Shown here: one piece after another, positions 22,486 to 59,900 of the stretch | How the letters are laid out: the number at the start of each line of letters is the position of its first letter | Position numbering within the stretch: position 1 is the first letter of the stretch | IMG/VR virus record: IMGVR_UViG_3300044691_000113 | Location: 5,300 to 69,299 of that record | Direction: 5' to 3' (one strand) | DNA length: 64,000 nucleotides | Origin: a virus | The notes under the pieces: generated by a model | Seen by the model: only the letters and a program-made list of their open reading frames with translations | The model's database searches: none | What the model was told of the DNA's origin: nothing | Position numbers and translations under genes: made by a program

Positions 22486-25400
22486 TTATATCCCCGGGCA
22501 GGTATAGGTAATGGTGTAGCCGGTCGAAGCGGTGGGTGCCGTACCGACATTGAGGGTCCACACCGAGGTGGTGTAGCTCCACGAGTAGGGCAGAGCAGTG
22601 AAGGGGCTGGCAGTGAGGACGACGCTTGCCGTGCAGTCCGGCAGATTGGTGTGTGCCGTACCCGCCGTCACGGTGAGCAGTGCGCCCGTCGTGGTCGCCG
22701 TTCCTGCGGTGAGGGTGACGGTCCCGTTCGTGGGCCCGCAGAGATGGCTTGCGGTGCAGGCGATCGTCGGTGACGTTCCAGCAGCAGCGCCCGCCGCGAT
22801 GGTTGCCGCCGTGAAGGAGCCGATTGCATTGCCCTTGAGGGTCGGTGCCTGCTCTGCCCCGGTGTACGTGCCGCCCGTTCCAGTGGCTCCGTTGATGACT
22901 GGCGAGGTCAGCGTCTTGCCGGTGAGCGTCTGGGTCGCCCCGATGCCTGCCAGCGTGTCGCTCGCCCCTGGCAGGGTAAAGGTTGCGTTGGCGGACCCGG
23001 TGAACTGCGTGTTGAAGGCACCGTTGAGGGTGAGGGTTGAGCCAGTGATCAGAGTGAGTGTCGCCGAGGTCGTCGGCGCCGTGATGGTCACCTTGTTGAT
23101 AGAGGTGGCAGTCGCCGCGCCAAGGGTCGGTGTCACCATCGTGCAGCTCGTCACCAGGCAGACGTTGCCGCTTCCGCTCGTCCCCACGATGGTCTCGATG
23201 ATCGCGCTCGAAGAGTTTGTGTAGAACGGGAATCCGGTAGCGGCCGCGCCTGCCAGCGTGACACTGTAGGACGTGACTGCGGCCGGAGCCTGGATGCAGA
23301 TAGTCGTCGTCGTGCAATTGGCATCACCTGTACTTGTCGTTCCCTGTGGCAGGAAGAGAAAGCCTGCTGTGGTGCCGGTGCCGACGAAATACTTGCCTGC
23401 GAAGCCAGCCGTGCCGGTGTAGGTGAAGGCCGTTCCGCTGTCGGTCGCCAGGGAGTTCTTAGGGGCTCCGCCTGCACCGCCGCCGAGCATCACTACGTTA
23501 TTGGTCAGCAGCGCCGAGGTTGCGGCTGCCGAGGTGCTGGAGGCGTAGAAGACACCGCCAGAGGTGAAGCCTGCACTCGCCGGGAACGTGTTGCCGTTGA
23601 CCGAGGTCGCATTGATCGTTCCGCTGCCGGATACGCCAAGGCTGGCACCAGTGCCGACCACCATAGCCGCCGTGGAGTTCGTGCTGCCGGTGAGCGCAGA
23701 GAAGGCAGTTGAGCCGCCTGAGCCGCACGCAGCACCAGCGTCAACCAGGTCGATGCCGTTGGCTGCCAGCTTGACACAATCTGCCGCGGTGCCGGCTGTC
23801 GCAATACCCGGAATCATCAGCGCACCGATGTTGTTCGGGTTCTGCATCCAGCGGTGCAAGGTGGAGTCAGGGTAGAGCGCCGCAGAGGAGGCTACGCCGG
23901 TGATTGCCGTTCCTTCCGGAATCAACCAGCCGTTAGCCGTTCCTGAGCCCGTGTAGGTGAGCTTCGTTCCGTCATCCGTAAGTCCGGAGTTGATGATGGA
24001 ATTCGCACCGTTGGCTTTGGGGATAGTGTTCGTAACCAGCGAGGTCGAGGTCGTGTTGCCGGTGCCAGCAGCAGGACAACCAGACCCACCCGTCTGACAG
24101 AGGCCAGCGAGCGCCACACCGCCTACCGCGCTGGAGTTTGTGGCCAGTGTCGCTGTCGCCGCGTTGCCAGTAGTGCTCTGGTTGAGTGTGGGAAAGTCGG
24201 CAGCTACGGCCGCAGAGAGCGTGCCTGCCGTGTCCTTCAGTATCCCGGTGAGACCTGATGGCCCTTGAGTTGTTCCCAGATTCCCGGAGAGAAGCGAAAA
24301 GCTGTAGTCGCCGCTCACGGGCACAACCGCTCCGGCTCTCGTGTTGAAGCTCGACACACCAGTCCCGGAGCCGCTGAACGTATAGGCGTTGCCTGTATGA
24401 GATACGCCCGGTCCGCTGAAGGTGAAGGCCCCAGTCAGCGTATCAATACTGATTACGCCACCACCACCGCCCCCGCCGCAGCCAGAGCAGCTTGGCACGG
24501 TGATCGGCACGTCGCTAGACCATCCGGAAACTGTCTGAATCACGTGGGAATCGCCCGAGACGCCGTGGATTGTCGTCGTTGTTGCAGAGCTGGTCTGGTC
24601 GATAGTGGAGAATGTCCCGCCAGCACCGCCCACTACGCTATTGGCGTCTGAAGTAGTGATGGTTTGGATGTACCCAGAACCGGTAGTCTGAAGAATTATT
24701 ATGTGGTCTGCGGGTTCCTCGCGTACCGTCAAGGTGTTAGTGCTGTTTCCGGTCACCCTCTCCATTTTGCCGGTGTCCTGGTGGATCGTCTCGGTGTACG
24801 TCCCGTTTTGGGTTGGGACCCGAAAAAGAAGAAAATTGGAGCGTGCATCCGCACAACCAAACGAGCAACCCTGAAATGTGACGAACGCGGTGTCGGGCGT
24901 GGGAATATTCTGGAAAATGGTGAGGAACGGGGCTTCGTTATTGGTCATGTCGAGCATGACGTTCGCAACTGGCTTAGTTCCCCCGTGGCCGAGATAGTTA
25001 TTTGGGGTGTCCTGGAACGCAACGCGATACCACGTCGTTCCTTCGGGGATCTGGCCGCCGAGTTGATCAAAGTGAATAACGTCAGGGGTAGCCGGAGAGA
25101 CCTGTGATTGGAAGTTGATAAGGTTGTGGTCAAGCCCCTGGAAAACTTCGCTATAGACCTGATCTTCTAAGTGGTCTCCGGCAGTTACCTGAAAGTTGGT
25201 ATTCGGCTCGACGGTCAGATTGAAGTTGTTGGCGAAGGTGACGGGGTCTACCGTATTCACGATTTCTACGGCGGGAAACAGTTGAGCTTCGCGAACTGAA
25301 AGTCCATTGAGCTGAGACTGAATCTCGACAGCATTAGTGCAGGTTGTCGTAGCTGCTGGGCCGGCAGTGTTCCATGTGACCGTAGAGCCGTTATCGGAGG

Positions 25401-27831
25401 TAATAGCTGCAAGGATATTGAACGACGTATCTGCACAGCCAGAGACGATGATGAAATCTTTCGACAGGACTAAGAACGGATCAGTCACCGGGGCGCTGAC
25501 GACGTTCGAGCTGTTTCTGGTAAGCGTGACGCCAGCAGGGGCAACTATTCTCGTTGTGGCGTAGCCCGAAAGAGCCTGTAGCCAACGACCCGCACCGATC
25601 CTTGAATACAAGAGGTGCGTGGCGTCCAGTGCCCCAACGATACGGATAATCTGCCGCCCAGGGAACGTTCCAGTGTACTGATTGGCCCTGATGTCAATCG
25701 CGGTGCAGGAGTGCGAACCCTGTACGACATAGGCCTGGGCTTGGTGGTTGTAGCGTAGGGCTACCGTTATGGTCTGAGTCCCGCTAGAAAATCCACCGAC
25801 CGAGACTACCCTTGCACTCTCCATATAATCGCGGTCGGCATAGCAGACGGTGCTGGCCGTGGTGATTGCGGAGGTGAGACCGGTGACCACAACGGTCGCG
25901 TTCGTCGTCGCGCCATAGTACTGGGTAGGAACGGTTACAGGCGAAGCTACCCGTCCGATGTTGTCGGGAGTCAGGGTAAGCGTGTCGATTGTCAGTTGGC
26001 CCGCATCGGCAACCCCCGGATCACCTGAGAAAACTATCTTGAATAGGGCGCTTCCCTTGCTGGCATCGACGAGGGGCGTTCCATCTCCCGGAAAGGGCAC
26101 GTTACTAATCAGCGTCCCTTGTATCAGCGTGGCTCCCGCCGCAAGAGTGGAGTTAGCCGAGATGGTCATCGGGGTAAGGTTCTGGCCGATCTGATTCCTT
26201 ACCGTATTGAAGCCTTCAGCACCGCCGTCCGGGTTTCCCCTGTTGTTGGTGACAACGTTCTGCCAGATGTGGCTGTCGCCAACCCCCATTCCTTGATGCT
26301 GAATGGTGAATTCGTTGACAATGCCGCGCCGCATGAATTCGAAGGCCCACTGAAAGGCTACGTAGCTGTCAGGTCCGCCGCCGTCAAATCCGTTCTTCCC
26401 CGACCCGGTCATTTCAAAATCGCGTAGGTAGGTGAAGACGTTATTTCCCGCACCCGAAGCCTGCGCCTGCTGATTCGATACCCAGCGGTCGTCGCTAACA
26501 ATGCCGCTCGGCGATCCTACATTGGTGTTATAAGCGTAGCTGCCAATACCATTCTGCCGGTAGTCATAGAACTTAGTATTGTTGGCAAATGGTGCTGGGC
26601 AGCCGATGGCATCACGCCAGTTGGGGCCGACGCAGGTACTATTCCCGCTGAGGATGCCTTCAACTTGGGCGTAATCCGGGCCAGCCACAACGATGCTTCC
26701 CGCTACCGCCAAAGCATTCGCTATGCCATCGTTCGAGGTTGGTGTGGTCTGATTGAGGAAGGCATTCTTGAGGCCGTCGTTACTCAGAGATTTGAAGTTG
26801 CCCACGCTGTCGAAGGTGGCGTTAGAGGCTGATCCCGCTCCACCTCCGGCGCTGAAGATTGCCTGGTTGACCGTGCCGGGTATCGTGCTTCCACCTCCGC
26901 CCGGTCCGCATTGCCCGTTGACCTGCAACACGTTGGTTCCAACTGTGCAAGGGGTTCCACTCCATATCGTCCCAGCGAGCGAGACGTAGTCACCCAAGAC
27001 TGCCGCGCGAGAGGTGAGCGGCGTGATGCCGAAGACAGGAGCATTGCTTGGCAGGGTTGCGCCAGCTCCGCATCCGCCCGTCGAGCAGAGCGTAGTCAGT
27101 GGAACAAGACCGATCTGCGTAGGAGGGTTGCCGGGTACGGGTCCAGCCCATACGAAGCCAGGGGTGATGTACGCCTGATTCGCGTCGATGCAGAAGGTTG
27201 TCCCGTTGATCGCGGAGGCTATCGCCTGGTCGTTTCCACGCTGGCAGCTCGGGTTGAGCGAGGGATTCTGTGTCCAGTAGACAGCGGCGTCGCCCTGCAG
27301 CCTCGAGCACACCCATGGGTAAGGATCGGAGGCGAGGGTGTTGTTATACATCGCACTCGGATTGCAGTTGAGCGTGGGGATACCGGCGCCAGAGATGGTG
27401 ATGCCAGCGGGAGCGATGTAGCCGTCGTAGGAGAAGGACGCCGTGGTGATGTTGGTCAGCGGGAAGGTGAAGTAGGTTGTGCCGCCGCCCGTGCTCTGTG
27501 TCTGGATCCGGTAGCGTGTGTTCGCCGGAGCCATCGTCAAAGGGTTGGCGATCGTCGGGGGAAAGCCGCCGATGTTCTGCACTGCTCCCTTGACGACTGG
27601 GAGAGTGAAGGGCGCACTCGTCGGAGATCCACCCTGGGGCGTGTAGGTAACCGGGGTGTTTGACGTGTCGGTGACGGTGAAGATGAGTTGGCCGGTGAGC
27701 GGTTGCCGGTTGTTATCGACGACCTTGTTGCCGCTGACGGGGATGGTCGCCTGCGCATGGAGCGCAGGGGGGATGGCGAGGAGGACGGCCGCGAGCAGTC
27801 CGAAGGTAAGCCAAAAGTTGATCCTGCGCAA
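22486..27831 (-). CDS. Very long fibre/spike-like protein with Sec-type signal peptide
   Basis: TTG 27831 behind GGAGG; RRINFWLTFGLLAAVLLAIPPALHA-Q; G/T/S/A-rich fibre motifs (VSSFNTRAGAV, ADFPTLNQSTTGNAATAT, ATATSINKVTITAP). Confidence 0.7.
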   Translation of the reverse strand: MRRINFWLTFGLLAAVLLAIPPALHAQATIPVSGNKVVDNNRQPLTGQLIFTVTDTSNTPVTYTPQGGSPTSAPFTLPVVKGAVQNIGGFPPTIANPLTMAPANTRYRIQTQSTGGGTTYFTFPLTNITTASFSYDGYIAPAGITISGAGIPTLNCNPSAMYNNTLASDPYPWVCSRLQGDAAVYWTQNPSLNPSCQRGNDQAIASAINGTTFCIDANQAYITPGFVWAGPVPGNPPTQIGLVPLTTLCSTGGCGAGATLPSNAPVFGITPLTSRAAVLGDYVSLAGTIWSGTPCTVGTNVLQVNGQCGPGGGGSTIPGTVNQAIFSAGGGAGSASNATFDSVGNFKSLSNDGLKNAFLNQTTPTSNDGIANALAVAGSIVVAGPDYAQVEGILSGNSTCVGPNWRDAIGCPAPFANNTKFYDYRQNGIGSYAYNTNVGSPSGIVSDDRWVSNQQAQASGAGNNVFTYLRDFEMTGSGKNGFDGGGPDSYVAFQWAFEFMRRGIVNEFTIQHQGMGVGDSHIWQNVVTNNRGNPDGGAEGFNTVRNQIGQNLTPMTISANSTLAAGATLIQGTLISNVPFPGDGTPLVDASKGSALFKIVFSGDPGVADAGQLTIDTLTLTPDNIGRVASPVTVPTQYYGATTNATVVVTGLTSAITTASTVCYADRDYMESARVVSVGGFSSGTQTITVALRYNHQAQAYVVQGSHSCTAIDIRANQYTGTFPGRQIIRIVGALDATHLLYSRIGAGRWLQALSGYATTRIVAPAGVTLTRNSSNVVSAPVTDPFLVLSKDFIIVSGCADTSFNILAAITSDNGSTVTWNTAGPAATTTCTNAVEIQSQLNGLSVREAQLFPAVEIVNTVDPVTFANNFNLTVEPNTNFQVTAGDHLEDQVYSEVFQGLDHNLINFQSQVSPATPDVIHFDQLGGQIPEGTTWYRVAFQDTPNNYLGHGGTKPVANVMLDMTNNEAPFLTIFQNIPTPDTAFVTFQGCSFGCADARSNFLLFRVPTQNGTYTETIHQDTGKMERVTGNSTNTLTVREEPADHIIILQTTGSGYIQTITTSDANSVVGGAGGTFSTIDQTSSATTTTIHGVSGDSHVIQTVSGWSSDVPITVPSCSGCGGGGGGGVISIDTLTGAFTFSGPGVSHTGNAYTFSGSGTGVSSFNTRAGAVVPVSGDYSFSLLSGNLGTTQGPSGLTGILKDTAGTLSAAVAADFPTLNQSTTGNAATATLATNSSAVGGVALAGLCQTGGSGCPAAGTGNTTSTSLVTNTIPKANGANSIINSGLTDDGTKLTYTGSGTANGWLIPEGTAITGVASSAALYPDSTLHRWMQNPNNIGALMIPGIATAGTAADCVKLAANGIDLVDAGAACGSGGSTAFSALTGSTNSTAAMVVGTGASLGVSGSGTINATSVNGNTFPASAGFTSGGVFYASSTSAAATSALLTNNVVMLGGGAGGAPKNSLATDSGTAFTYTGTAGFAGKYFVGTGTTAGFLFLPQGTTSTGDANCTTTTICIQAPAAVTSYSVTLAGAAATGFPFYTNSSSAIIETIVGTSGSGNVCLVTSCTMVTPTLGAATATSINKVTITAPTTSATLTLITGSTLTLNGAFNTQFTGSANATFTLPGASDTLAGIGATQTLTGKTLTSPVINGATGTGGTYTGAEQAPTLKGNAIGSFTAATIAAGAAAGTSPTIACTASHLCGPTNGTVTLTAGTATTTGALLTVTAGTAHTNLPDCTASVVLTASPFTALPYSWSYTTSVWTLNVGTAPTASTGYTITYTCPGI

Positions 27832-27853
27832 AGTACGCCTCCGCTGTAACGCG

Positions 27854-27885
27854 GCGTACCCTACCATTTTTAGGATTCTTGGCTA
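27854..27885 (-). promoter_or_regulatory. Late promoter motif, copy 5
   Basis: Minus strand TAGCCA-N16-TAGGGT with the shared 18-mer. Confidence 0.8.
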
Positions 27886-29572: not shown

Positions 29573-29926
29573 TTAGGCTTTCGGCCCAGTCCCCACGTTG
29601 GTCATCACAACTGACGCCTTAGCTGTCGCTTCCACGTCTAACTCGCCGGTTGGCTTGTAACGCGGACTCACAAAGGCGATGGTGTCTTTCGGCATTGCCT
29701 CGGAGACGGCGAGGTCACCGTAGAAGCGTTGGCCATCGAATCCGCCCTCGGATAGTGTTCTCCGTTGTGTAGGCCATTCGACCTTCTCGAACTCCCATGG
29801 CGGCTTGGCGAACGATTCAGCAAGGTGTTGAACGGTCGTCTGGCTTAGGGGCGTTCCGGTGCCGTACTTCTCCCACGCCGCCAGGATGCGCTCTCGCCAA
29901 ACGTCTTCACCTGGCCATTCCATCAT
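29573..29926 (-). CDS. Small protein with capsid-like C-terminal motif
   Basis: EGGFDGQRFYGDLAVSEAMPKDTIAFVSPRY; start uncertain (29926 or 29962). Confidence 0.5.
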   Translation of the reverse strand: MMEWPGEDVWRERILAAWEKYGTGTPLSQTTVQHLAESFAKPPWEFEKVEWPTQRRTLSEGGFDGQRFYGDLAVSEAMPKDTIAFVSPRYKPTGELDVEATAKASVVMTNVGTGPKA

Positions 29927-29955
29927 TTCGCCCTCGTTTCTCGCAGGGTAGCACG

Positions 29956-30021
29956 GTTGCACCGTATCCAGTGCAACATTATTTGTCGTAACTCTGACGA
30001 CAAGTTGCGACAGCCAAACGG
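29956..30021 (-). promoter_or_regulatory. Promoter/operator region of the attP-proximal cluster
   Basis: Palindromes GTTGCAC-N8-GTGCAAC and TTGTCGT-N7-ACGACAA; minus strand TTGTCG-N16-TAATGT and TGcTACCCT; shares two 12-mers with 41076-41124. Confidence 0.5.
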
Positions 30022-30240
30022 GGGAGAGTTTGAGGGAGAATTAGCAAAGCCACATACGCCAAACCCTGATAAATGCTGGAAAATGCTGGAACGTCGTAAC
30101 ACTCTATGTCATTGAAAACACAAAATACAGAATGGCTACGAACCAGTAGGTCGGGCGTTCGAATCGCTCCGGGCGCACCATTTAGGATCAATAGCTTACC
30201 TCATGTATGCAGAATTATCGAGGGAGGATTTGAGGGAGGA
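30021..30240. repeat. attP arm-type direct repeats flanking the core
   Basis: Paired GAGGGAG-like repeats with 12-nt period at 30021-30040 and 30220-30240; tandem AAATGCTGGA at 30071-30090; IHF-like GATCAATAGCTTA at 30186-30198. Confidence 0.65.
30133..30180 (+). other. attP core: 3' half of tRNA-Arg(ACG)
   Basis: TGG-CTACGAA-CCA anticodon arm remnant, T-arm GGGCG-TTCGAAT-CGCTC, acceptor 3' strand ending CCA; no 5' half; about 0.9 kb from integrase 3' end. Confidence 0.9.
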
Positions 30241-30833
30241 CTAATTTCTAAAGCACAATGTGGGAACTCCCTCTTCTTCGCCCTACGCACGCTCTCTGCC
30301 GCTTCCTGGGCGAGATCCTTGGATGGATACTTCTGTTCGTCTCCCAGAGTGATGGATCTGTACGTATTGCCGTCTTTATATCGAAAAACCCACACATCTG
30401 GTCCTTTTTTCCTCTCCTTCAATGTCACGCTTCCGCATTGACGGCGGCGGTTACGGGGGCGCTTTTTGGTGTGTGGTGTGGGAATGAAGCCGAAGTAGCC
30501 GAAACGCTCTCCGAGAGTCTTCACTTCTCCAAGATCGATCATCCCTGAGTCGGCTTCCCGGTGATGGTTGGGGCAAAGCGGTATCAGGTTATTCAAGTCA
30601 TTGATTTCATCGATCATCGCTGTTCCAGGGAAGGCCATGACTCCACGCTTGTGTGCAATGTCAACGTGGCGGTCGTAACCACAGAAGAAGCAGCAGAGTG
30701 GCAGGCCCGAGGTCTCGAACTTGTTGCGCGCACCTTTTTGAATCATTGTGCGTGCCCGCTGGTATCCCATGCGAGTGAAGACTGCCGCTCGGGTTTCTCC
30801 GAGACCGTGGGTTGCTGTACGCTTGAGATGCAT
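30201..30833 (-). CDS. HNH endonuclease fused to an integrase arm-binding-like domain
   Basis: Start re-called at ATG 30833 behind GGAG; CFFCGY..VDIAH...NLIPLCPNHHREAD; C-terminal GSVTLKERKKGPDVWVFRYKDGNTYRSITLG..KY resembles the integrase N-terminus. Confidence 0.8.
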   Translation of the reverse strand: MHLKRTATHGLGETRAAVFTRMGYQRARTMIQKGARNKFETSGLPLCCFFCGYDRHVDIAHKRGVMAFPGTAMIDEINDLNNLIPLCPNHHREADSGMIDLGEVKTLGERFGYFGFIPTPHTKKRPRNRRRQCGSVTLKERKKGPDVWVFRYKDGNTYRSITLGDEQKYPSKDLAQEAAESVRRAKKREFPHCALEISPPSNPPSIILHT

Positions 30834-30921
30834 GGGTGTTCTCCGTTGACGCGGATGAGCTTTGTGCGGAAGTCTCTGAACAGACGACCGCAACCATGCT
30901 TTCATTCTACACTTCGGCCTT

Positions 30922-31089
30922 CTATCTCTGATTGCTCAGGCAGAAATTATTGCGTTCCTCTTCGTTGCAGAACCAACCGTAGGCGCCATCTTTGACCATG
31001 CGAGTCTTCGAGACGATCGAGCCACACTTCACGCACCGCGCAACCTCGGAATAGTAAGCAGGAAATAGCCAGCGAAGAAATCTCTTCAT
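30922..31089 (-). CDS. 55-aa Cys-containing hypothetical protein (below ORF-track cutoff)
   Basis: ATGA overlap with int stop; MKRFLRWLFPAYYSEVARCVKCG...WFCNEE..C. Confidence 0.55.
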   Translation of the reverse strand: MKRFLRWLFPAYYSEVARCVKCGSIVSKTRMVKDGAYGWFCNEEERNNFCLSNQR

Positions 31090-32327
31090 GCTCTTTTCCT
31101 CAGCATCTCCACAACCCTGGCGTTGGCACCGCGCACCGTCTCCGCCTTCGAACTGCCGCCGTACTTCAGGGTTTGCCGGATGTCTTCATGGCGCATGAGC
31201 GCCCGTTGCTCCTCGAGGGTGAGCTTCTCCTGGTCCATCATCGCCCGGTAGGTGTGGCGGAAGTCGTGCCAACCAAGGTTGGGGATGCCGATCAGCTTGC
31301 CCGCAGGGACGAGATGGTCCTGCTGCAACGTTCCACCCCAGAACGGACGGCCGGTAACGATGTTACAGAAAAGCCAGCCATTGACTGGGGTGGGGATGCC
31401 GTCTCGGGTCTCACCTTCGATAGTCTGCTCCTCGCGCCATAGCTCGAGGATGGCGTAGAGGTCTTCGTGGATTGGCAACTCCTCCTCAGATCCTTCGGTT
31501 TTCGTGTCGCCGGTGTTCTGACCCACTTGGGAGCGGTGGATGCTCATGACGCGTCGTACCATATTGAAGTCTTCCCAGCGAAGGCCGAGTATCTCACTGA
31601 CGCGCAGGCCCAACAGCATGGCGATGAAGATCATGGTGCGAACGTGGGGAGCCAGTTCTACCACCGTGGTCAGGGCAATCCACTGGTCATGGGTGATGAT
31701 GTTCGCTGGGCGAACCTTCTTCCTGCGCCCCTTCACCTTGACCGCGGTGACTGGATTGCGTTGCATGGGGATAAGTTGGTGCTTCATCGCGTACTCGAAG
31801 ACAAGGTGTACGAACGCCTTGATGTGGAGCTTCGTCTTCTTGCTGGCTGGACGGGCAGGTTTGCCAGGGATCGTCTTGCCGGGGATGAGCTTGCCCTTTG
31901 CCATGCGGTCTGGGATAACCCTGTCGGGCTTGGCCAGGACTTCGTAGCCGTTGACCCAGTTCTCGATCGCGAGGATGTCCTTGACCATGTCGTCGACGCG
32001 CCACTCGCCCCAGTCTGCCCGTAACCGCTTCATGAACCCGAGGTATGTCTTGGCTGTCTTCGGGCGTATGTCCTTCGGCTTGTCCCACTCCAGTTTGAGG
32101 CGATCGCAGAGGCCGGAGACGTTGATGCCGGCGATGCGCTCGTTGATCTCGAGGAGTTGGCGGTCGGCTTCCTTGCGCGCGGCGCCCTTGGTTCGGAACT
32201 TGTCGACGGTGCCAATCTCTTTGGAGCGGTATCTACCGTTCTCTTCGAAGCGGAGAACCCACAGGTCAGGGCCCTTGGCGCGGGGTTTGCGGGTGACAGT
32301 GCCTTGCTGGTAGCTGCTGCGCTTCAT
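31086..32327 (-). CDS. int: Tyrosine integrase
   Basis: GLRVSEILGLRWED, TKT, HDFRHTY, LMRHEDIRQTLKY catalytic motifs; adjacent attP. Confidence 0.95.
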   Translation of the reverse strand: MKRSSYQQGTVTRKPRAKGPDLWVLRFEENGRYRSKEIGTVDKFRTKGAARKEADRQLLEINERIAGINVSGLCDRLKLEWDKPKDIRPKTAKTYLGFMKRLRADWGEWRVDDMVKDILAIENWVNGYEVLAKPDRVIPDRMAKGKLIPGKTIPGKPARPASKKTKLHIKAFVHLVFEYAMKHQLIPMQRNPVTAVKVKGRRKKVRPANIITHDQWIALTTVVELAPHVRTMIFIAMLLGLRVSEILGLRWEDFNMVRRVMSIHRSQVGQNTGDTKTEGSEEELPIHEDLYAILELWREEQTIEGETRDGIPTPVNGWLFCNIVTGRPFWGGTLQQDHLVPAGKLIGIPNLGWHDFRHTYRAMMDQEKLTLEEQRALMRHEDIRQTLKYGGSSKAETVRGANARVVEMLRKRA

Positions 32328-32366: not shown

Positions 32367-32534
32367 TCAGCAGTACCCACTCTCGCGCATCGTTACATCG
32401 TCGGGGTCTTCCCAACCCATAAAGTCGAGGTCGTCGCAGTCGTCTGGCATCTGGCAGTCGCAGTAGCAACCAGGTCCAGTGCAGGCGCTACACATCCCGA
32501 GGGCGCAGGCGGGGCAGACGACATCCCGACTCAC
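32367..32534 (-). CDS. Cys-rich microprotein
   Basis: GTG overlapping xis stop; CPACALGMCSACTGPGCYCDC. Confidence 0.5.
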   Translation of the reverse strand: MSRDVVCPACALGMCSACTGPGCYCDCQMPDDCDDLDFMGWEDPDDVTMRESGYC

Positions 32535-32755
32535 TGTGCCCGTCCGCTCTTGATGAACTCGTCGACATCGGACAGCCGGCAGCGCCAGTAGGTTTTCTTG
32601 CCGAACTTGTAGGCTTTTGCCGGTATCTTGCCCGCGATGGCGAGGCGCCGGGTGGTCTGGTAGCCGAAGCCGATGTGCTTGGCGACGACGCGCAGGTCCA
32701 CCCACTTCTCAGCCTCGGCGGTGGCGACTTGGGGTTCGACGAGTTGCAGGCTCAT
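32531..32755 (-). CDS. xis: Excisionase-like winged HTH protein
   Basis: Start at ATG 32755; WVDLRVVAKHIG...TTRRLAIAGKIPA...WRCRLSDVDEFI; upstream of int. Confidence 0.75.
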   Translation of the reverse strand: MSLQLVEPQVATAEAEKWVDLRVVAKHIGFGYQTTRRLAIAGKIPAKAYKFGKKTYWRCRLSDVDEFIKSGRAQ

Positions 32756-32988
32756 GGTTTGCTCCTCTTCATCGGGCCGAAGCACTCTTCGTAGCCCTTT
32801 ATCAACTTGGGGTCCGTCTTCATAATCTCGTCCCGCTTGCATCGGTTGGTGTCTTCCTTCCCGTGGCAGACTCCGAAGGGACACTTGCAGAGTGGCAATA
32901 GGTCCATCAGGCCGCCGTCCGCGAGGCGCTTCAGCTCGGCGTCGGGCTGGGGGTTGCGCTTTAGGAACTCTTCGAACTCCTTGCTCAT
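32752..32988 (-). CDS. Hypothetical protein
   Basis: 78 aa, ATGA-coupled to both neighbours. Confidence 0.6.
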   Translation of the reverse strand: MSKEFEEFLKRNPQPDAELKRLADGGLMDLLPLCKCPFGVCHGKEDTNRCKRDEIMKTDPKLIKGYEECFGPMKRSKP

Positions 32989-33185
32989 CGTTCGCTCCTG
33001 TGCCTGGTGCCGGTGGTGACCTTGACGGCTTCCGCTTTGTGGTCGCTGCAGTAGCCAATGTTGTGCTGGGTGGGGTGACGGTAGAGCGCAGGCTTACCAC
33101 AGTGGCAGGTCTCCGGATCCTGGCGGCGTACCAGTGGCTGATCCCCGCGGTCGTTCCATGGGACAATCGGCGCTATCGTTCTCAT
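32985..33185 (-). CDS. Small zinc-finger protein
   Basis: ATG 33185; CHCGKPA...GYCSDH. Confidence 0.6.
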   Translation of the reverse strand: MRTIAPIVPWNDRGDQPLVRRQDPETCHCGKPALYRHPTQHNIGYCSDHKAEAVKVTTGTRHRSER

Positions 33186-35699: not shown

Positions 35700-36368
35700 C
35701 TACACCTCCCTGTAGGCGTCAACGAACCGCTTGAGGATCTCGTCGCCGGCCCGGAGCTGGTTCTGCCGGTACTGGTCCGTCGTGGTGTCCTCGCTCGTCA
35801 TGACTCGCCTGACAGCCGGGTGCTGCGCGATCAGGGCGATTCCTGCCGTGCTATCCCCCCAACCGATTCGCGCCAACGCCGCCTGCGTCCTCCTGGCGAT
35901 GGGAAATACCGTGCTTTCACCCCGGATCGGCGCATGGGTGCGATTTCCCTCCGCGTCCTTCGGGTCGGCATCAGTGCCGTATAGGATCGGCCCAGGGATG
36001 GGTTTGAGCATCGGCCCGTGAGGTCCACGCATCCCCGCGATGAGGTACAAGAGCTGTTCCTTGGCGGCACACTCGACAGGATCACCCGTTACGGCGCGGC
36101 CACTGTACTCGCGGAGGATAGCTGGGCTTGGGAAGTATTTGCAGCACTCCAGCGCTCGGCTGAACCCCAGGATGATCTCCTCCTCCGTGCAGTCCTCCAG
36201 CGCCGCGATGTAGAGCCTCACCGTCCTCGGAGTCGCTGTCTTGTCGAAGACCTCCGCCAGTGCTTCCAGCGACAGGACTATCCCCTCGATCGGTTGCCCT
36301 GGCCCTTGCTTCTGCCAAAATTCCTTGAAAAACTTCTGAGTTGCCGATAGCGCCTTTTCGTCTGCCAT
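35700..36368 (-). CDS. Putative helicase loader-like replication protein
   Basis: ATG 36368 behind AAGGAGG; LYIAALED...CKYFPSPAILRE pattern of proteins that follow phage initiators. Confidence 0.6.
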   Translation of the reverse strand: MADEKALSATQKFFKEFWQKQGPGQPIEGIVLSLEALAEVFDKTATPRTVRLYIAALEDCTEEEIILGFSRALECCKYFPSPAILREYSGRAVTGDPVECAAKEQLLYLIAGMRGPHGPMLKPIPGPILYGTDADPKDAEGNRTHAPIRGESTVFPIARRTQAALARIGWGDSTAGIALIAQHPAVRRVMTSEDTTTDQYRQNQLRAGDEILKRFVDAYREV

Positions 36369-37413
36369 TGCTTGCGCCCTCCTTGGCGCTGGTGATCCCT
36401 GGTAAGTCTTTGGGTTGTAGGCGGTAGTCGCCCGAGTTGTAGAACTTTGGAATCGCGGCCACGAACTGCCAACGGTCTTGCGGAACCTCATCCCATGCGT
36501 CGAGATGCAGCAGCATCGCCCGCCCCACGTCAGCCATCGGCTCTTTGCGCCGTTGCGCGTCATCGGCCATGGCGTCGAGAATCGCCTGCCGGTCAGCCAG
36601 CCCCACATTGCGCTCCGTCCACTGCCGCATCCGGCTCCGAGGATGGCGAAGGGCTATCTTCACTGCCAACCCCTCAAGGTCTTCTTCCACCAAGCCCATG
36701 AGGGAAGAACCTTCAGCCTTCGCCTGCGCGCGCGCCTTTTGTGTCTGCTCTGCTTCTGGTTTTGAATCTGAATATGCTTCTGAATCTGAATCTTGGGCAG
36801 TTACACCCCCCACCATGTCACCGTTACTGTAACCGTTACGATCCGTGACCATCTTGTAACGTGCTGCCGCGTCAGGGTTTTTGAATATGTATCCCGCTTC
36901 CTCTGGCGTGCGCCCTGATTTACCGCTGTTACAGCCCTTGCAAGCAGTGGCTAGATTGTCCTCTTCGTCGGTGCCACCTTTTTGGAGGGGAATCACATGG
37001 TCAATGCAGAGGTGTAACGGTGACAGGCAGTACACACACTTTTTGCCGTCGCGTTTGAAGATTACGTTGGAGTCGATAGCGCCAGAGCTACGCTTTAGAC
37101 CTAAAGCCTCGCGCCGATCCCGGTACCGCTTGACGCGCTCCTTACTACTGTCAGAGAGAAACTGTCTATCGTCCCAATGCCGCAGGTTCCAATTCGCGTC
37201 AATGAAACCGTAGTTGATGAACACCCGCTTAGTCGTCTCTAGTTCTTCTGGGCTGATTCGCCAATAAAAGGCCCGTTGATCATCGGTAAGAACTTCTTCT
37301 TTGCAGCGGGAACACATGAGCATCACGAGCCGGCGCTGCATCGCCTCAGACATGATCTGGACTTTGGGGTCATCTGCGAACTCGGCGTAGAGGCGGAACC
37401 ATGGGTTAGCCAT
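36082..37413 (-). CDS. Phage replication initiator with in-frame HNH domain
   Basis: MANPWFRLYAEFADDPKVQ N-terminus, SKERVKRYR, then KRDGKKCVYC..IDHVIP..GGTDEEDNLATACKGCNSGK, then DSDSE linker. Confidence 0.8.
   Translation of the reverse strand: MANPWFRLYAEFADDPKVQIMSEAMQRRLVMLMCSRCKEEVLTDDQRAFYWRISPEELETTKRVFINYGFIDANWNLRHWDDRQFLSDSSKERVKRYRDRREALGLKRSSGAIDSNVIFKRDGKKCVYCLSPLHLCIDHVIPLQKGGTDEEDNLATACKGCNSGKSGRTPEEAGYIFKNPDAAARYKMVTDRNGYSNGDMVGGVTAQDSDSEAYSDSKPEAEQTQKARAQAKAEGSSLMGLVEEDLEGLAVKIALRHPRSRMRQWTERNVGLADRQAILDAMADDAQRRKEPMADVGRAMLLHLDAWDEVPQDRWQFVAAIPKFYNSGDYRLQPKDLPGITSAKEGASNGRRKGAIGNSEVFQGILAEARARATDRGDSPVAGSTGGGLRQDSDSEDGEALHRGAGGLHGGGDHPGVQPSAGVLQILPKPSYPPRVQWPRRNG
36760..36865. 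repeat. Probable replication origin (iterons) inside initiator gene
   Basis: Clustered GTTAC/GTAAC/GTGAC motifs (CCGTTACTGTAACCGTTACG) beside TGAATC repeats. Confidence 0.5.
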
Positions 37414-56445: not shown

Positions 56446-56979
56446 CTAGTTTACCCGTGGTGGCGCGAAGGCCCCATGCTCGGCGTAATAGCGCATCTCT
56501 TCGATCGTGCGGCCCTCGAAGAACTTGTCCGGATTCTTCAGCGGTTGGTCCAGACCGAGGATCCTGCCCATGGCTTCAGCCGCCGCGACCTGCCCGCTGA
56601 TTGAGCCGCGTGTCTTTTCGACGGGGATCTGCGACAACTCATCCAGCCTCGAGAGAACGTAGTCACGGGTGTAGCCCTTGCTGTGCAGGAGCCGCACTTC
56701 AGACTTCACCATCTCGACCATCATTCGTTCGCGGTAGACCTCGATGTACTTCTGGACCGGCTTGCGATGGTAGACCCGACTCGACTCCTCCGCCGTGTAG
56801 CCACACTTCTTGCCAGCATCGACGATGCGCTTCGTCTGGTTGGTGTTCGTGGTGCCGTCGCCCTTCATGACGAGGTGACAGAACAGGGTCTCCACTTGGC
56901 CGAGCGGAGGTTCTTTGCGTGGTGCTCGCGGCTTCGCTGGCTTCTTCGGGGTTGCGGCCTTCTTCTTAGGGGTTGGCAT
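56446..56979 (-). CDS. terS: Terminase small subunit
   Basis: 177 aa directly upstream of terL; FCHLV..AGKKCGY..PVQKYI..TRDYVLSRL..AAEAMGRILG helical pattern. Confidence 0.7.
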   Translation of the reverse strand: MPTPKKKAATPKKPAKPRAPRKEPPLGQVETLFCHLVMKGDGTTNTNQTKRIVDAGKKCGYTAEESSRVYHRKPVQKYIEVYRERMMVEMVKSEVRLLHSKGYTRDYVLSRLDELSQIPVEKTRGSISGQVAAAEAMGRILGLDQPLKNPDKFFEGRTIEEMRYYAEHGAFAPPRVN

Positions 56980-59900
56980 CTGCTCTCCGTACTGCTTCCG
57001 GATTCCTTCGTAACAGGTTCATCCGTTTCTTGTCCATCTCAGGCTTCAGGATACGACGCTCTGCCGGCGTTGCGAGATTGTTATAAACCTCGCGTGCATC
57101 GGCGTAGCTCATATTCTTGAACTCTTTCTGGAGGTACTCTGTGTGACCCGCCTTCAGCGCCATGTGCATGGAGCGCACCGTAGGCGCCTTCACGATCGCA
57201 TCCTGGTCCTGCCGGTCCTTCACCTGCTGCGGGGTCAGCGGTGTGCGGCGTGCGCGGAGTATCTCCTGCATCCTTGCCTCTGCCGGGGTCAGGTCGCGCT
57301 CTCTCGATGTGGGACTCAGGCCCGCAGTCTTCAGCACCTTCGTCATGGTGGACTGGCCGCCGTGCTTGTCGGTGAAGCCCTGCGCCGCAATCGGCTTCGG
57401 CAGCCCGTACTTTACCGCCTCCGCCACCTGCTGATACAGCGGTGCGTTCGGGTCGTAGACGTAGTTGTTGAAGAAGTCGCGGTTTTCGAGGAGGTCCACG
57501 AAGTTACCCGCTGTGCCAGACATGGATCCACGGACGTACTCGCGGGGATGCAGATAAGCGTGCTCGAAGTCCTTGAAGCCAGTCGGCAGCGAGATACGCT
57601 CCGGCTTGCCCGTGCGCGCATCCACCTGGCCGGTGCGCGGGTGAGTCATCTCTAGGAGCAGATGCCCGTCGTCACCTTCCGCGAACTCCCACGGGTACTT
57701 CTCCGTCCACAACTTCGTTAGGATCGTGCCGAGGACCACCGTCGCCGCCGCCATGCCGAGGAGCCAAGCCTGATTCATCCCAATCTTCGGGACATACTCG
57801 CCGGCTGGCCGCTGCTTCTTGCCTGCCTTCGCGTCTTCGATCATCGCCTGAATAGGGTCAGCAAACGCATGGTAGGCTTCCGGACCCGCCGCGGAACCAG
57901 CCCCGCGCCAGTTGCCCAGCTTCCACGTAACCGAGCGGAAGTTGAATTGCGCCACACTCTTGAACGTGTTGTTCCACAGGATGTTCGAGAAGTTCATCTC
58001 ACCGAAGCGGTTCTCAGCGGTGTCGATGACCTTGCGCGCTATCGCCGCCCGGGTGGTGTCACCGTTCGCGAGCGCCGTCCGGTTCTCGACGAGCTGCTGT
58101 GAATACTGCGCCAGCGCGAAGCCTAATTTGAGACGTGGAATGTAGTGTTCGAACAGAGGCGACATGATGACCTCGTTCGCCCAAGGCATCAGCCGGAGCA
58201 TTGCACCGCCGTAGTTCTTGTCGGTGATGGCCTGCCGCACCGACTTCATCATGGACACCTTGTAATCGGGGTTCATGCCCCACTGGTAGCCGCCCGTGAA
58301 TAGATCGTCCATCATCGCCGGAGCGTCCGGGTGCTGCTGTAGGAAGGAAGCCCCACGCTTTGTCTTGGCGAAGTTCTGCAGGTTGTCTACCATCTTGAGC
58401 AGGCTGCCGCCCGTGCGCGCCATCAGGACCGGCGCCGCCATCGACGTCGCAATCTCCTTGACGCCCTTCATCGCCTCCGTACCCTCACCCAGGCGGATAC
58501 CGTTGTTCCACAGCCGTTGCACGCCGAGGCCGAACTGCGAACCCATCGCCTCCACCGTCTCAAAGCCGAAGTGGAACGGCGACAGGCCAAGCTCGATCAT
58601 CGTCGAGATGTTCTTCGCCGCCATCAGAACCTTGCCGATCGCGTTCTCGCGGATGAGGTCGCGGGAGAGGTAGTTATTCAGCGTGCGCCCGGCAGACGGT
58701 TCCAGATACCACTCGCCCGCCTGGACCATGCCCTCGCCGGAGGAGGCAGGGAAGAAGCTCTTGGCGATACGGTCATCCAGCTTCACCCACCCGTCAGGCC
58801 GCTTATCGCCGGGTTTGACGAACTTGCGGAGTCCCAGCTTCTTCAAGTCGCGCCAGTGATCTTGAGCGGTGATGTACTGCATCATGCTCTGCTGCGCGAG
58901 GGTGAACATCTTCCACGGGTTCGTCGAGACCGGCACGCCGCCGTAGTGGATGCCCTCGGAGATGGTGTCGAGCGTCGCCCGCTTCATAAAGCCCTTGTCA
59001 CCCTCGAACGGACGCCGCCCCTGGCCGACTCCGGGCCGCGCCGTCGTGTTGCCGTGGGTGCCACTGGGATCCGGAATAACCTTCCACAGCACGCGGTAGT
59101 GATCTTCCTTCGCCGTCATGCTCGGCTTGTAGACCTGCGCCCGGTCGAATGTCGCCTTGTCGATCGTCCGCATCAGCGTCTCAATCTTCTGCAGCGTCGG
59201 GTCGATCTGGCCTACTCCCATCTTGTAGCGGTCGATAAAGGCCAGCCGCGCCGCCTCCGGCATCTTGTCGAAGAACTTCTCGAGGCCGCCTTCCATCCGA
59301 TCGAGCATGAACCGGGCTTTCTCCCGTTCACCCTTGGCCTTGAAGAGGGAGTCGAGCGCGTCCTGGTTGGCACCAATGCGGGGATAGAGGAGCGCCGCCG
59401 TCTGGATTCCTGCCTTGCGCACGGTCTCAAGGGTGGTGCCGATGTGTGGGGCAATCTCCTTCTCCCAGAGCTTCTGACCCTGTTCCACCATGAACTCCGC
59501 AACGATGTCCGCGCCAAAGAAGGAGGAGCGCAGGACAACGCCCTTCGATGGTGGCTTCTCCTCGTCCTCGTGGTCGTCGTCATTGGATAGCTCCTTCGAC
59601 TCTTCCTCATCTTCCGCCTCGTCCTGCGTCTGGCCCGTATTGTCTGCCTCTGCGGTAACCGCCTGCGTCATGGCGAGGTCCCCGTCGAGGTCGCTCTTAC
59701 CGATGCCGAGCGAGACGTTCACCTTCTTGAGTTCGGCCTGAACCTCTTTCAGTTCGTCGGCCTGGTCGGACTTGCCACCCTCGGCGTACTGCTTCAGCTT
59801 CGCGGCACGCTCCTCGGCAACCTTGATCGAGTCGAGCATCTCGCCAACCCTATCCGGCAGACTGCGGAGGCGTTGGTCGATCGAGCGGCCGAGCGACTCC

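What the first reader, a model, noticed from the sequence alone, without database searches (positions are those of the whole stretch)
30201..30833. HNH nuclease fused to a copy of the integrase arm-binding domain, sitting on attP
Seen: after the HNH domain, RRRQCGSVTLKERKKGPDVWVFRYKDGNTYRSITLGDEQKYPSKDLAQEAAE aligns with the N-terminus of the adjacent integrase, RSSYQQGTVTRKPRAKGPDLWVLRFEENGRYRSKEIGTVDKFRTKGAARKEAD. The last codons overlap the arm repeats (30220-30240) and the stop lies about 20 bp from the att core. Established: tyrosine integrase N-terminal domains bind arm sites. Inference: a nuclease targeted to att arm sequences, which could cut att sites of competing elements, home into int-attP regions, or modulate integration and excision.
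Basis: partly seen in the sequence, partly recalled or inferred. Interest (0 to 1): 0.8.

Follow-up and report, generated by a model that had tools for sequence, protein, structure and literature searches.

The report
Nuclease with integrase arm domain at attP
A soil phage carries, wedged between its integrase gene and its attachment site, a small mobile-looking nuclease gene whose DNA-targeting half is borrowed from integrases, which suggests a selfish or weapon-like nuclease aimed at phage attachment sites.

Summary
The window is most of a complete 69-kb temperate phage. ORF 30201-30833(-) encodes an HNH_2 nuclease joined by a linker to a beta3-alpha domain. That domain aligns with the N-terminus of the adjacent integrase (21/49 identical, E 3e-10). 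Its last codons run over two GAGGGAG arm repeats, and its stop lies 20 nt from a 48-nt tRNA-Arg(ACG) core.

The fusion is not a read-through accident. Six proteins, 38-60% identical, share both domains and all catalytic residues. They form one group in trees of either domain.

It is not a recent copy of the neighbouring integrase. The window's own Int ranks 26th of 33 integrase N-domains.

HNH-only relatives sit inside phage tRNA arrays. Two related int-att loci lack the 842-bp, low-GC3 cassette, with the int stop abutting the arm repeats. An Xis-type gene is present upstream of int.

Best reading (about 0.5): a free-standing homing-type HNH endonuclease that swapped its DNA-binding module for an integrase arm-type domain. 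Binding and cleavage are untested. This is a new variant of a known kind.

The parts
30201..30833 (-). HNH-arm fusion gene (210 aa plus stop). An alternative start at 30905 gives 234 aa. The database gene call (P0001, 181 aa) starts too late.
   Evidence: homologues P0002, P0009 and P0010 conserve residues upstream of the called start; GGAG lies 7 nt before the ATG at 30833
30504..30803 (-). HNH (His-Me finger) nuclease domain, residues about 11-110. It carries CxxC (C48, C51), H61, N78, N82 and C87-P-x-H90-H91, all invariant in the family.
   Evidence: Pfam HNH_2 in 5 of 5 members; invariant columns; pLDDT above 90; VIA Z 6.3 to the EcoKMcrA HNH
30444..30503 (-). Basic linker, residues about 111-130, low model confidence
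   Evidence: 10-residue pLDDT blocks of 63 and 52
30264..30443 (-). Integrase-type N-terminal (arm-type) DNA-binding domain, residues about 131-190: three strands followed by a helix
   Evidence: BLASTP to the adjacent Int E 3e-10 and to the L002 Int E 2e-14; model strands 136-139, 147-154, 157-165 and helix 172-185; VIA Z 5.9, 5.8 and 5.4 to P4-like integrase arm-binding domains 3rmp, 3jtz and 3ju0
30204..30263 (-). Unconserved C-terminal tail, partly encoded by the P' arm repeats
   Evidence: alignment A1: the tail is absent from the 4 homologues; pLDDT 56 and 54
30220..30243 (.). P' arm: two tandem GAGGGAGGA repeats, 12-nt period
30133..30180 (+). attP core: 48 nt identical to the 3' part (anticodon stem to CCA) of tRNA-Arg(ACG)
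   Evidence: ARAGORN finds no full tRNA in the window. Loose ends at 30133 in run X1 continue as the 5' half of a tRNA gene.
30020..30043 (.). P arm: two tandem GRGGGAGAR repeats, same orientation as the P' arm
30244..31085 (-). 842-bp cassette (orf55 plus the HNH-arm gene) that is extra relative to related int-att loci
   Evidence: DNA alignment A4; L022 has 60 nt from int stop to tRNA and L002 has 54 nt from int stop to the tRNA fragment; GC3 0.55 against 0.79 for int
30922..31089 (-). orf55, a small Cys-rich (CxxC...C...C) ORF. Its ATG overlaps the int stop (ATGA). Function unknown.
   Evidence: no Pfam or NCBIfam hit; weak phrog_4615 hit, E 0.0056
31086..32327 (-). Tyrosine integrase, 413 aa
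   Evidence: Pfam Phage_integrase E 3.6e-12; phrog_1 E 6.6e-50
32531..33166 (-). ORF with a C-terminal HTH_17 (excisionase-type) domain, directly upstream of int. The true start is probably internal.
   Evidence: Pfam HTH_17 E 3.4e-6, 27.7 bits against cut-off 27, residues 160-208

Best explanation
The 842-bp cassette between the integrase stop codon and the P' arm of attP is a free-standing, homing-type HNH endonuclease gene.

Its nuclease core belongs to an HNH_2 lineage whose other members are small mobile-looking genes inside phage tRNA arrays. Those members carry N-terminal zinc-ribbon modules. In this sub-lineage the modules were replaced, once and long ago, by a C-terminal domain of the kind that forms the N-terminus of Acidobacteriota tyrosine integrases.

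Inferred mechanism:
- The arm-type domain docks on GAGGGAG-type arm repeats of attP, attL or attR in related phages that lack the cassette.
- The tethered HNH domain nicks or cuts nearby, on the int side.
- Recombinational repair from a cassette-bearing genome copies the cassette into the int/P'-arm junction.
- In the carrier, the inserted DNA has replaced the sequence next to the arm repeats, which would protect it.

Shown: the architecture, its conservation, its single origin, the attP anatomy, absence of the cassette from two related loci, deviant composition, and tRNA-array residence of relatives.

Inferred: DNA binding to arm repeats, cleavage, homing and self-protection.
For: 1. The gene is real and conserved.
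- Six proteins with both domains are 38-60% identical (window, P0002, P0009, P0003, P0010, L018 ORF).
- C48, C51, H61, N78, N82, C87, H90 and H91 are invariant.
- The AF2 model has mean pLDDT 84.3.

2. There was a single fusion event.
- The 6 fused arm domains are separated from 33 integrase domains by one branch (99/98).
- The 6 HNH cores form one group among 154 rows (SH-like 89).

3. The HNH lineage behaves like free-standing mobile nuclease genes.
- In 8 of 12 family loci (L003-L014) the gene lies in a tRNA/tmRNA array, and in 7 of 12 within 100 nt of a tRNA.
- In Streptomyces phage TomSawyer the annotated HNH gene 109 ends 7 nt before tRNA-Ile.

4. Related loci have an empty site.
- In L022 (int remnant 84% identical over residues 190-413) the int stop is 60 nt from tRNA-Arg(ACG).
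- In phage L002 (Int 44% identical) the int stop is followed at once by CTCCCT-type repeats and a tRNA fragment.
- The window's extra DNA is exactly 30244-31085.

5. The cassette has a foreign composition: GC3 0.55-0.57, against 0.79 (int), 0.84 (xis-like) and 0.67-0.69 (other phage genes).

6. The cassette abuts the very repeats its DNA-binding domain is predicted to recognise. In L018, the only other fused locus with DNA, three GGAGGG-type motifs lie 215-270 nt downstream of the gene.

7. There is precedent in passages read.
- N-terminal HNH plus C-terminal AP2 proteins are an established homing endonuclease family, and HEG nuclease domains repeatedly acquire foreign DNA-binding domains (PMC10448857; PMC5714182).
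- T4 SegB is a homing endonuclease in a tRNA cluster (PMC2330249, abstract in listing).
Against: - No binding or cleavage data exist.
- The empty sites come from one decayed prophage remnant and one distant phage (Int 44% identical), not from near-identical genomes. Presence/absence polymorphism in a population is therefore not shown.
- Laying four soil runs found no contig joining across the cassette.
- The carrier keeps all four arm repeats intact, including the P arm with its natural flank, so self-protection is unexplained.
- No flanking repeats or other insertion footprint were found.
- The fused form is rare. None was found in IMG/VR apart from the window, in GTDB representatives, in 401 genomes of the host family or in 50,697 GenBank phages. 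Only one other locus has DNA, and its upstream side is cut off.
- The Pfam arm-domain match is below the gathering score.
Confidence: 0.5

Rival explanations
1. An att-directed weapon. The nuclease uses an integrase-like arm domain to find and cut attP, attL or attR of competing temperate phages or satellites that use the same kind of integration module. This would be exclusion or marker exclusion rather than self-propagation, analogous to ICP1's chimeric origin-directed nuclease.
For: - The fused domain is closer to other integrases than to the phage's own: L002 Int 56% and 56.2 bits, L024 59.7 bits, own Int 43% and 44.3 bits, 26th of 33. It could therefore prefer foreign arm sites.
- There is precedent for a nuclease that borrowed a rival element's DNA-binding domain (PMC8263062, title and abstract start in the listing; passages in PMC10448857).
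- The catalytic residues are conserved.
Against: - No PADLOC defence model matches the fusion or P0002 (0 families each; P0009 only weak nuclease hits).
- A weapon need not sit exactly at the int/arm junction.
- The own arm repeats share the GAGGGAG/CTCCCT motif with those of L002, so self/non-self discrimination is not evident.
- This reading is not exclusive of the homing reading.
Confidence: 0.2
2. A modulator of site-specific recombination. The arm-type domain competes or cooperates with Int at the P' arm sites and biases integration against excision. The HNH part would be accessory or vestigial.
For: - The gene lies in the xis-int operon direction, 16-88 nt after orf55, whose start overlaps the int stop.
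- Its domain is homologous to Int N-domains.
- It overlaps the P' arm.
Against: - All HNH catalytic and zinc residues are invariant across 6 diverged members, which argues for selection on nuclease activity.
- A canonical excisionase-type HTH_17 ORF already sits upstream of int, in the window and also in L002.
- Related int-att modules work without the cassette.
- The low GC3 marks the cassette as a late arrival.
Confidence: 0.1
3. An ordinary phage HNH nuclease whose C-terminal domain no longer binds arm DNA. Examples would be a packaging helper of the terminase or a general nuclease, with the position at attP being incidental.
For: - Many phages carry HNH genes.
- The Pfam arm match is below cut-off.
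- No profile link to solved arm-binding domains was found.
Against: - The C-terminal domain is conserved and confidently folded and is homologous to integrase N-termini.
- The gene is far from any recognisable packaging genes. A second, different HNH gene exists at 36082..37413.
- The cassette boundary coincides with the arm repeats.
Confidence: 0.08

Closest known systems
HNH-AP2 homing endonucleases (Magnani et al. 2004, recalled and as cited; 'IPA-HNH' HEGs of ICP1-like phages, PMC10448857 passages)
   Same: An N-terminal HNH nuclease joined to a C-terminal small three-stranded-sheet-plus-helix DNA-binding domain. Free-standing genes in phages. The model's C-domain also aligns with an AP2 domain (6sy0, Z 4.4).
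   Different: The HNH is of the HNH_2 type, not HNH_3-like. No Pfam AP2 hit appears. The DNA-binding domain is a sequence homologue of tyrosine-integrase N-termini (E 3e-10 and 2e-14). The gene sits on an attP arm.
Arm-type DNA-binding domains of P4-like tyrosine integrases (Pfam Arm-DNA-bind_3; PDB 3rmp, 3jtz, 3ju0)
   Same: The fold matches (Z 5.4-5.9 over 56-57 residues, rmsd 2.5-2.8). Pfam Arm-DNA-bind_3 is the top family for 13 of 27 domains of this clade, best E 8.3e-6.
   Different: The domain is detached from any recombinase catalytic domain and placed C-terminal to a nuclease. The window's copy scores below the gathering cut-off (14-16 bits against 27).
Free-standing nuclease genes in phage tRNA clusters (T4 SegB, PMC2330249 abstract in listing; T5 F-TflI/II/IV as cited in PMC5714182)
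   Same: The nearest HNH relatives lie between tRNA genes of large phages. The window's gene lies 20 nt from a tRNA-derived core.
   Different: SegB is GIY-YIG. The window's gene has lost the N-terminal zinc-ribbon modules of its HNH relatives (motif in 82 of 154 proteins) and lies in an integration module, not a tRNA array.
ICP1 Odn, a chimeric nuclease carrying the DNA-binding domain of a satellite's replication initiator (PMC8263062, listing only; PMC10448857 passages)
   Same: The logic is the same: a mobile-element nuclease domain retargeted by capturing the DNA-binding domain of another element's DNA-transaction protein, so that it recognises that protein's sites.
   Different: The nuclease fold differs (T5orf172 against HNH_2). 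The donor protein differs (replication initiator against integrase). The target differs (origin against att arm sites).

Membership tests
HNH / His-Me finger nucleases (Pfam HNH_2, PF13391) | Pfam model matched at or above the gathering score | tested here: met
   21.5-21.7 bits against cut-off 21 for the window protein; 5 of 5 fused members match, best E 3.4e-5
HNH / His-Me finger nucleases (Pfam HNH_2, PF13391) | Catalytic His, structural Asn, metal-binding His and Cys/His zinc ligands present | tested here: met
   C48, C51, H61, N78, N82, C87, H90 and H91 are invariant in A1. The same motif is present in the L018 ORF.
HNH / His-Me finger nucleases (Pfam HNH_2, PF13391) | beta-beta-alpha-metal fold | tested here: met
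   Model residues 13-117 align to EcoKMcrA (Z 6.3), VcaM4I (5.8), Cap5 (5.6), IscB HNH (5.5) and Gme HNH (5.1). These Z scores are middling, and Foldseek gave no E <= 0.001.
Tyrosine-integrase arm-type DNA-binding domain (Pfam Arm-DNA-bind_3) | Sequence homology to N-terminal domains of tyrosine integrases | tested here: met
   BLASTP E 3e-10 to the adjacent Int and 2e-14 to the L002 Int. In 128 of 401 host-family genomes the query matches; all listed matches fall in query residues 96-208, mostly in frames of about 400 aa.
Tyrosine-integrase arm-type DNA-binding domain (Pfam Arm-DNA-bind_3) | Pfam model at the gathering score | tested here: inconclusive
   The window copy scores 14-16 bits against cut-off 27. 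4 of 5 fused members hit at E <= 1 (best 0.0028), and 13 of 27 clade domains hit (best 8.3e-6). A profile search of PDB sequences found no arm domain.
Tyrosine-integrase arm-type DNA-binding domain (Pfam Arm-DNA-bind_3) | Three-stranded sheet packed on a helix | tested here: met
   DSSP on the model; Z 5.9, 5.8 and 5.4 to 3rmp_C, 3jtz and 3ju0; Z 3.2 to the lambda Int DBD 2wcc
Tyrosine-integrase arm-type DNA-binding domain (Pfam Arm-DNA-bind_3) | Sequence-specific binding to arm-type repeats of attP | not testable with these tools
   Needs EMSA or footprinting on 30020-30043 and 30220-30243
Free-standing homing endonuclease genes | Nuclease domain plus a separable DNA-binding module, gene not inside an intron or intein | tested here: met
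Free-standing homing endonuclease genes | Present or absent at the same site among related genomes | tested here: inconclusive
   The cassette is absent from L022 (int remnant 84% identical) and L002 (Int 44% identical), with the int stop abutting the arm region. No near-identical cassette-less genome was found, and no contig joins across the cassette.
Free-standing homing endonuclease genes | Composition unlike the flanking genes | tested here: met
   GC3 0.55-0.57 against 0.67-0.84
Free-standing homing endonuclease genes | Cleaves the gene-less allele and is copied into it | not testable with these tools
   Needs cleavage mapping and co-infection or two-plasmid conversion assays
HNH-AP2 homing endonucleases | Pfam AP2 (PF00847) DNA-binding domain | tested here: not met
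   No AP2 family is listed at E <= 0.1 or <= 1 for the window protein or the other 4 members. Only a fold-level resemblance is seen (6sy0, Z 4.4).
Excisionase / recombination directionality factors | Small winged-helix or HTH_17-type DNA-binding protein next to int | tested here: not met
   The fusion has no such domain. HTH_17 lies in the separate ORF 32531..33166.
Known anti-phage defence proteins (PADLOC) | Match to a defence-system model | tested here: not met
   0 families for the window protein, orf55 and P0002. P0009 has only E 0.0036 and 0.0099 hits.

The most novel reading that the evidence does not exclude
An integration-module parasite or weapon. This would be a nuclease lineage that captured the arm-recognition domain of tyrosine integrases and so reads the same arm code as the recombinase. 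It would home into, or destroy, the attP, attL and attR sites of rival temperate phages and satellites that compete for the same tRNA-Arg site. Attachment-site arms would then be a battleground between mobile elements, and a natural example of recombinase targeting domains being re-used to aim a nuclease.
Probability: 0.2. Interest if true: 0.8.

Novelty: new variant of a known kind. Interest (0 to 1): 0.55.

Why it matters
Homing-type nucleases are known to swap DNA-binding modules. A conserved lineage that uses an integrase arm-type domain and sits exactly at an int/attP junction did not turn up in my literature searches.

If the domain reads arm repeats, three things follow:
- Attachment sites would be targets of selfish or competitive nucleases, not only of recombinases.
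- This would explain one way in which cargo accumulates between int and att.
- It would give a compact natural scaffold (about 60 aa of reader plus about 100 aa of HNH) for studying how arm-site specificity is encoded.

It would also make the arm code of a large, unstudied clade of Acidobacteriota integrases experimentally approachable.

Tried and rejected
Read-through into an integrase remnant. Rejected: the domain is C-terminal to the HNH, and the fusion is conserved in 6 proteins and monophyletic.

Recent duplication of the adjacent Int domain. Rejected: the own Int ranks 26th of 33.

Searches that found no further fused members:
- IMG/VR with the single protein gave 1 locus, an integrase.
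- IMG/VR with alignment A1 gave 8 loci, HNH only.
- GTDB representatives gave 7 loci, HNH only. Three of them (L015-L017) are other HNH types and were dropped from the tRNA count.
- 401 genomes of the host family gave arm-domain hits only.
- GenBank phages gave 3 of 50,697 records, HNH part only.
- The search for longer proteins with the arm region found none, which is weak evidence.

Integrase relatives. None in IMG/VR by pattern.

Other searches that gave nothing:
- Rfam on 29900-30400: no match, although a tRNA half is there.
- Promoter and terminator scan: not above shuffles.
- Flanking direct repeats of the cassette: only short, chance-like ones.
- PDB sequence searches: nothing relevant.
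- NCBIfam: nothing for the fusion.
- Earlier scan notes: none.

orf55 as a detached zinc ribbon of the HNH family. The only support is scores of about 10 bits in a 154-protein set, so this is inconclusive.

Sequencing runs:
- No RNA holder is listed.
- In runs X2-X4 the cassette bins 30287-30988 are almost uncovered, while the int and core bins are covered.
- Relatives' contigs stop matching at 31086 or 31095.
- No contig joins across the cassette, so this is not used as evidence.

ESM Atlas. No large cluster has the fused architecture. The structure rows point to viral HNH_2 clusters and to Acidobacteriota integrases. These are leads only.

Not run or not available:
- Complex prediction was not used, because no protein-protein claim is made.
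- Supplements were closed. Supplementary Figure S3 of PMC5714182 (domain architectures) might list an HNH_2 plus arm-domain architecture and could not be seen.
Full report
**What the window is.** The window is bases 5300-69299 of a 69,299-bp IMG/VR virus record with direct terminal repeats, estimated 100% complete. The integration module is therefore in its attP form. An integrase remnant 84% identical to the window's Int (residues 190-413) lies next to a full tRNA-Arg(ACG) in an Acidobacteriaceae MAG, which points to that host group.

**The observation.** ORF 30201..30905(-) is 234 aa.
Homologues conserve the sequence from that point. The 181-aa gene call in the database (P0001) is therefore too short.
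- Domains by Pfam: HNH_2 just above its cut-off (21.5 bits against 21) and Arm-DNA-bind_3 below its cut-off (E 0.059).
- Similarity to the neighbour: BLASTP against the adjacent integrase (31086..32327, -) gives 21/49 identities, E 3e-10, aligning the ORF's C-terminal domain with Int residues 7-55.
- Arm repeats: a double repeat GRGGGAGRRTTTGAGGGAGRA lies at 30020-30040 and 30220-30240 and nowhere else in the window (the pattern was taken from these copies).
- Core: between the repeats, 30133-30180 is identical over 48 nt to the 3' part of the tRNA-Arg(ACG) gene of L022. ARAGORN finds no whole tRNA in the window.
- Overlap: the ORF's stop (30201-30203) is 20 nt from the core, and its last 14 codons are written in the P' arm repeats.

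**Is the fusion real and conserved?**
- The word-indexed search returned two further proteins with both domains: P0002 (60% identical, 92% of the query) and P0003 (55%).
- The exhaustive representative search found 2,800 proteins at E <= 0.001. Among the 150 listed, 4 have one matched stretch running through both domains (P0002, P0009, P0003, P0010). The other 146 match only within residues 3-120.
- A metagenome scan added a sixth member with DNA: L018 1..579, open at its 5' end.
- In alignment A1 the CxxC pair, H61, N78, N82 and C87-P-x-H90-H91 are invariant, and so are core residues of the C-domain (G134, S135, R141, G144, W148, Y152, G164).
- The AlphaFold model (48-row alignment) has mean pLDDT 84.3. 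It shows a confident HNH domain (residues 11-110), a low-confidence basic linker, a confident beta-beta-beta-alpha domain (131-190), and a poorly modelled tail that only the window's protein has.
- Foldseek gave no match at E <= 0.001.
- The VIA second look aligned residues 13-117 to HNH nucleases (EcoKMcrA Z 6.3). It aligned residues 133-190 to arm-type binding domains of P4-like integrases: 3rmp_C Z 5.9, rmsd 2.8, 56 residues; 3jtz Z 5.8; 3ju0 Z 5.4. It also aligned them to AP2 (Z 4.4) and the lambda Int DBD (Z 3.2). These Z values are middling but cover the whole small domain.
- Among 27 domains of this clade, 13 hit Pfam Arm-DNA-bind_3 at E <= 1, best 8.3e-6.
- A profile search of PDB sequences found nothing relevant.

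**Is it a copy of the neighbouring integrase's domain?** No.
- Searching 401 genomes of the host family gave matches in 128. All listed matches fall in query residues 96-208, mostly in frames of about 400 aa, that is, integrase N-termini. None matched the HNH part.
- Ranked by tblastn, the window's own Int is 26th of 33 (44.3 bits). L024 (59.7), L027 (57.8) and the IMG/VR phage L002 (56.2 bits; 29/52 identical, E 2e-14) are closer.
- In a maximum-likelihood tree of 39 domains, the 6 fused domains are separated from all 33 integrase domains by one branch (99/98). The window's Int pairs with the L002 Int (97/76). One integrase row, L041, comes from an unpublished genome, G174; the result does not depend on it.
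- The HNH cores of the 6 fused proteins also form one group among 154 rows (FastTree, SH-like 89; window plus P0002 at 99).

So the fusion arose once, is old, and both halves have diverged together.

**What the HNH lineage does elsewhere.**
- The HNH-only relatives are about 150-260 aa. Many carry N-terminal CxxC...FCxxC...N zinc-ribbon motifs (82 of 154 proteins).
- Of 12 genuine family loci (L003-L014), 8 place the gene inside a phage tRNA/tmRNA array and 7 place it within 100 nt of a tRNA gene. L015-L017 were dropped as other HNH types. Examples: L003, 1 nt after tRNA-Met; L008, 2 nt before tRNA-Gln. L005, L011, L013 and L014 have no tRNA in the locus. L006 and L007 look like the same phage.
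- In Streptomyces phage TomSawyer the annotated HNH gene 109 ends 7 nt before tRNA-Ile, within a tRNA array.
- Small nuclease genes interspersed in phage tRNA clusters are a classic setting for free-standing homing endonucleases. T4 SegB is one example (PMC2330249, abstract seen in the listing). T5 F-Tfl enzymes are listed with HNH_2 in group 1 of the His-Me finger classification (PMC5714182, passages).

**The cassette.**
- In the DNA alignment, homology with the two relatives runs to the end of int and resumes at the arm repeats.
- L022 has 60 nt between the int stop and the tRNA. L002 has 54 nt, beginning with CTCCCT-type repeats directly after the stop.
- The window has an extra 842 bp (30244-31085). 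It holds orf55, whose ATG overlaps the int stop, and the fusion gene.
- Composition: the cassette has GC 0.53 and GC3 0.55-0.57. This compares with GC3 0.79 (int), 0.84 (xis-like ORF) and 0.67-0.69 (other phage genes).
- In L018, three GGAGGG-type motifs lie 215-270 nt downstream of the fused gene. This is suggestive only.
- An ORF with an excisionase-type HTH_17 domain lies directly upstream of int, and a similar small ORF lies upstream of int in L002. The module therefore already has a conventional directionality-factor candidate.

**Most likely mechanism (confidence about 0.5).** This is a free-standing homing-type HNH endonuclease whose targeting module is an integrase arm-type domain.
- Shown: the two-domain architecture, its conservation and single origin, the attP anatomy, the cassette's absence from two related int-att loci, its deviant composition, and the mobile-gene-like setting of its HNH relatives.
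- Inferred: that the C-domain binds GAGGGAG-type arm repeats; that the HNH nicks or cuts beside them in cassette-less genomes; that repair copies the cassette into the int/P'-arm junction; and that the insertion itself shields the carrier.
- Weak points: the empty sites are from a decayed remnant and a distant phage; no joint across the cassette was seen in four soil runs; the carrier keeps all four arm repeats; and the family is rare, so only two loci have DNA.

**Rival readings.**
- An att-directed weapon against competing phages or satellites (about 0.2). It is favoured by the domain's greater likeness to foreign integrases and by the precedent of ICP1's chimeric nuclease (PMC8263062, listing only; PMC10448857, passages). 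No defence model matches. This reading overlaps with homing.
- A recombination modulator (about 0.1). It is disfavoured by the invariant catalytic residues and the presence of an Xis-type gene.
- An ordinary HNH with an inert C-domain (about 0.08).

**Comparison with known systems.**
- It works like the HNH-AP2 homing endonucleases: N-terminal HNH, C-terminal small sheet-helix DNA reader (PMC10448857 and PMC5714182 passages). Magnani et al. 2004 is not held and is cited from recall.
- It is not a member of that family. No AP2 Pfam match appears, and the HNH is of the HNH_2 type.
- Its reader is a sequence homologue of integrase N-termini.

**Novelty in print.** My searches listed no paper describing an HNH fused to an integrase arm domain, or a nuclease gene at an int/attP junction of this kind.
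- 'HNH, AP2, homing endonuclease, integrase': 16 papers.
- 'arm-binding domain, HNH': 1 paper.
- 'homing endonuclease, attP, integrase, tRNA gene cluster': 114 papers with at least 3 terms.
- 'Arm DNA-binding, HNH endonuclease': 2 papers.

I saw only listings and abstract starts for most of these. Supplements, including the domain-architecture figure of PMC5714182, were closed.

**Verdict.** This is a new variant of a known kind, with interest 0.55.

Noticed in passing
window 36082-37413 (-): A second, different HNH nuclease (443 aa). Pfam gives HNH at E 9.8e-11 and HNH_5. PADLOC gives PtuB-like hits at E 2.7e-6.
   Followed up: partly
window 30922-31089 (-): orf55 is a 55-aa Cys-rich ORF whose ATG overlaps the integrase stop (ATGA). 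It is part of the cassette. It resembles the N-terminal zinc ribbons of HNH-only relatives only weakly (about 10 bits).
   Followed up: partly
P0030, P0084 (proteins); L006/L007 4650-4800; L010 4719-4782: Several HNH-only relatives have predicted termini that read into neighbouring tRNA genes. Examples are tails such as ...AGSIPAPA, and frames that overlap tRNA-Met or tRNA-Arg. This shows how tightly these genes abut tRNA genes.
   Followed up: partly
P0011-P0015, P0017, P0020: Longer relatives (320-641 aa) carry two HNH modules of this family in one protein, some with C-terminal helix-turn-helix-like tails.
   Followed up: no
L022 4025-4782: An integrase remnant lacking its N-terminal half (206 aa, 84% identical to the window's Int) lies 60 nt from an intact tRNA-Arg(ACG) in an Acidobacteriaceae MAG. 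It looks like a decayed prophage end.
   Followed up: partly
L029 1498-2800: An integrase in a host-family genome is frameshifted after about 126 aa and continues in another frame. It is not a stand-alone arm-domain protein.
   Followed up: partly
L018 793-847: A cluster of three GGAGGG-type motifs (one inverted) lies 215-270 nt downstream of the only other fused gene with DNA. An ECF-sigma-like ORF sits at the far end of the contig.
   Followed up: partly
window 30133 and 30180 (run X1): Contigs of the likely source sample match only the 48-nt core and continue as the 5' half of a tRNA gene. An unoccupied host tRNA-Arg site therefore seems to be present in the same sample.
   Followed up: no
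window 56966-64000 (-) and 22486-27867 (-): Two very large ORFs are present: one of at least 2,344 aa, running off the window, and one of 1,793 aa that is Gly/Thr/Ser-rich and tail-fibre-like. Most structural ORFs had no PHROG match.
   Followed up: no
ESM Atlas rows 6, 8, 9: Clusters of small (97-153 aa) Acidobacteriota proteins structurally resemble the arm domain. They may be stand-alone arm-domain proteins or truncated integrase calls.
   Followed up: no
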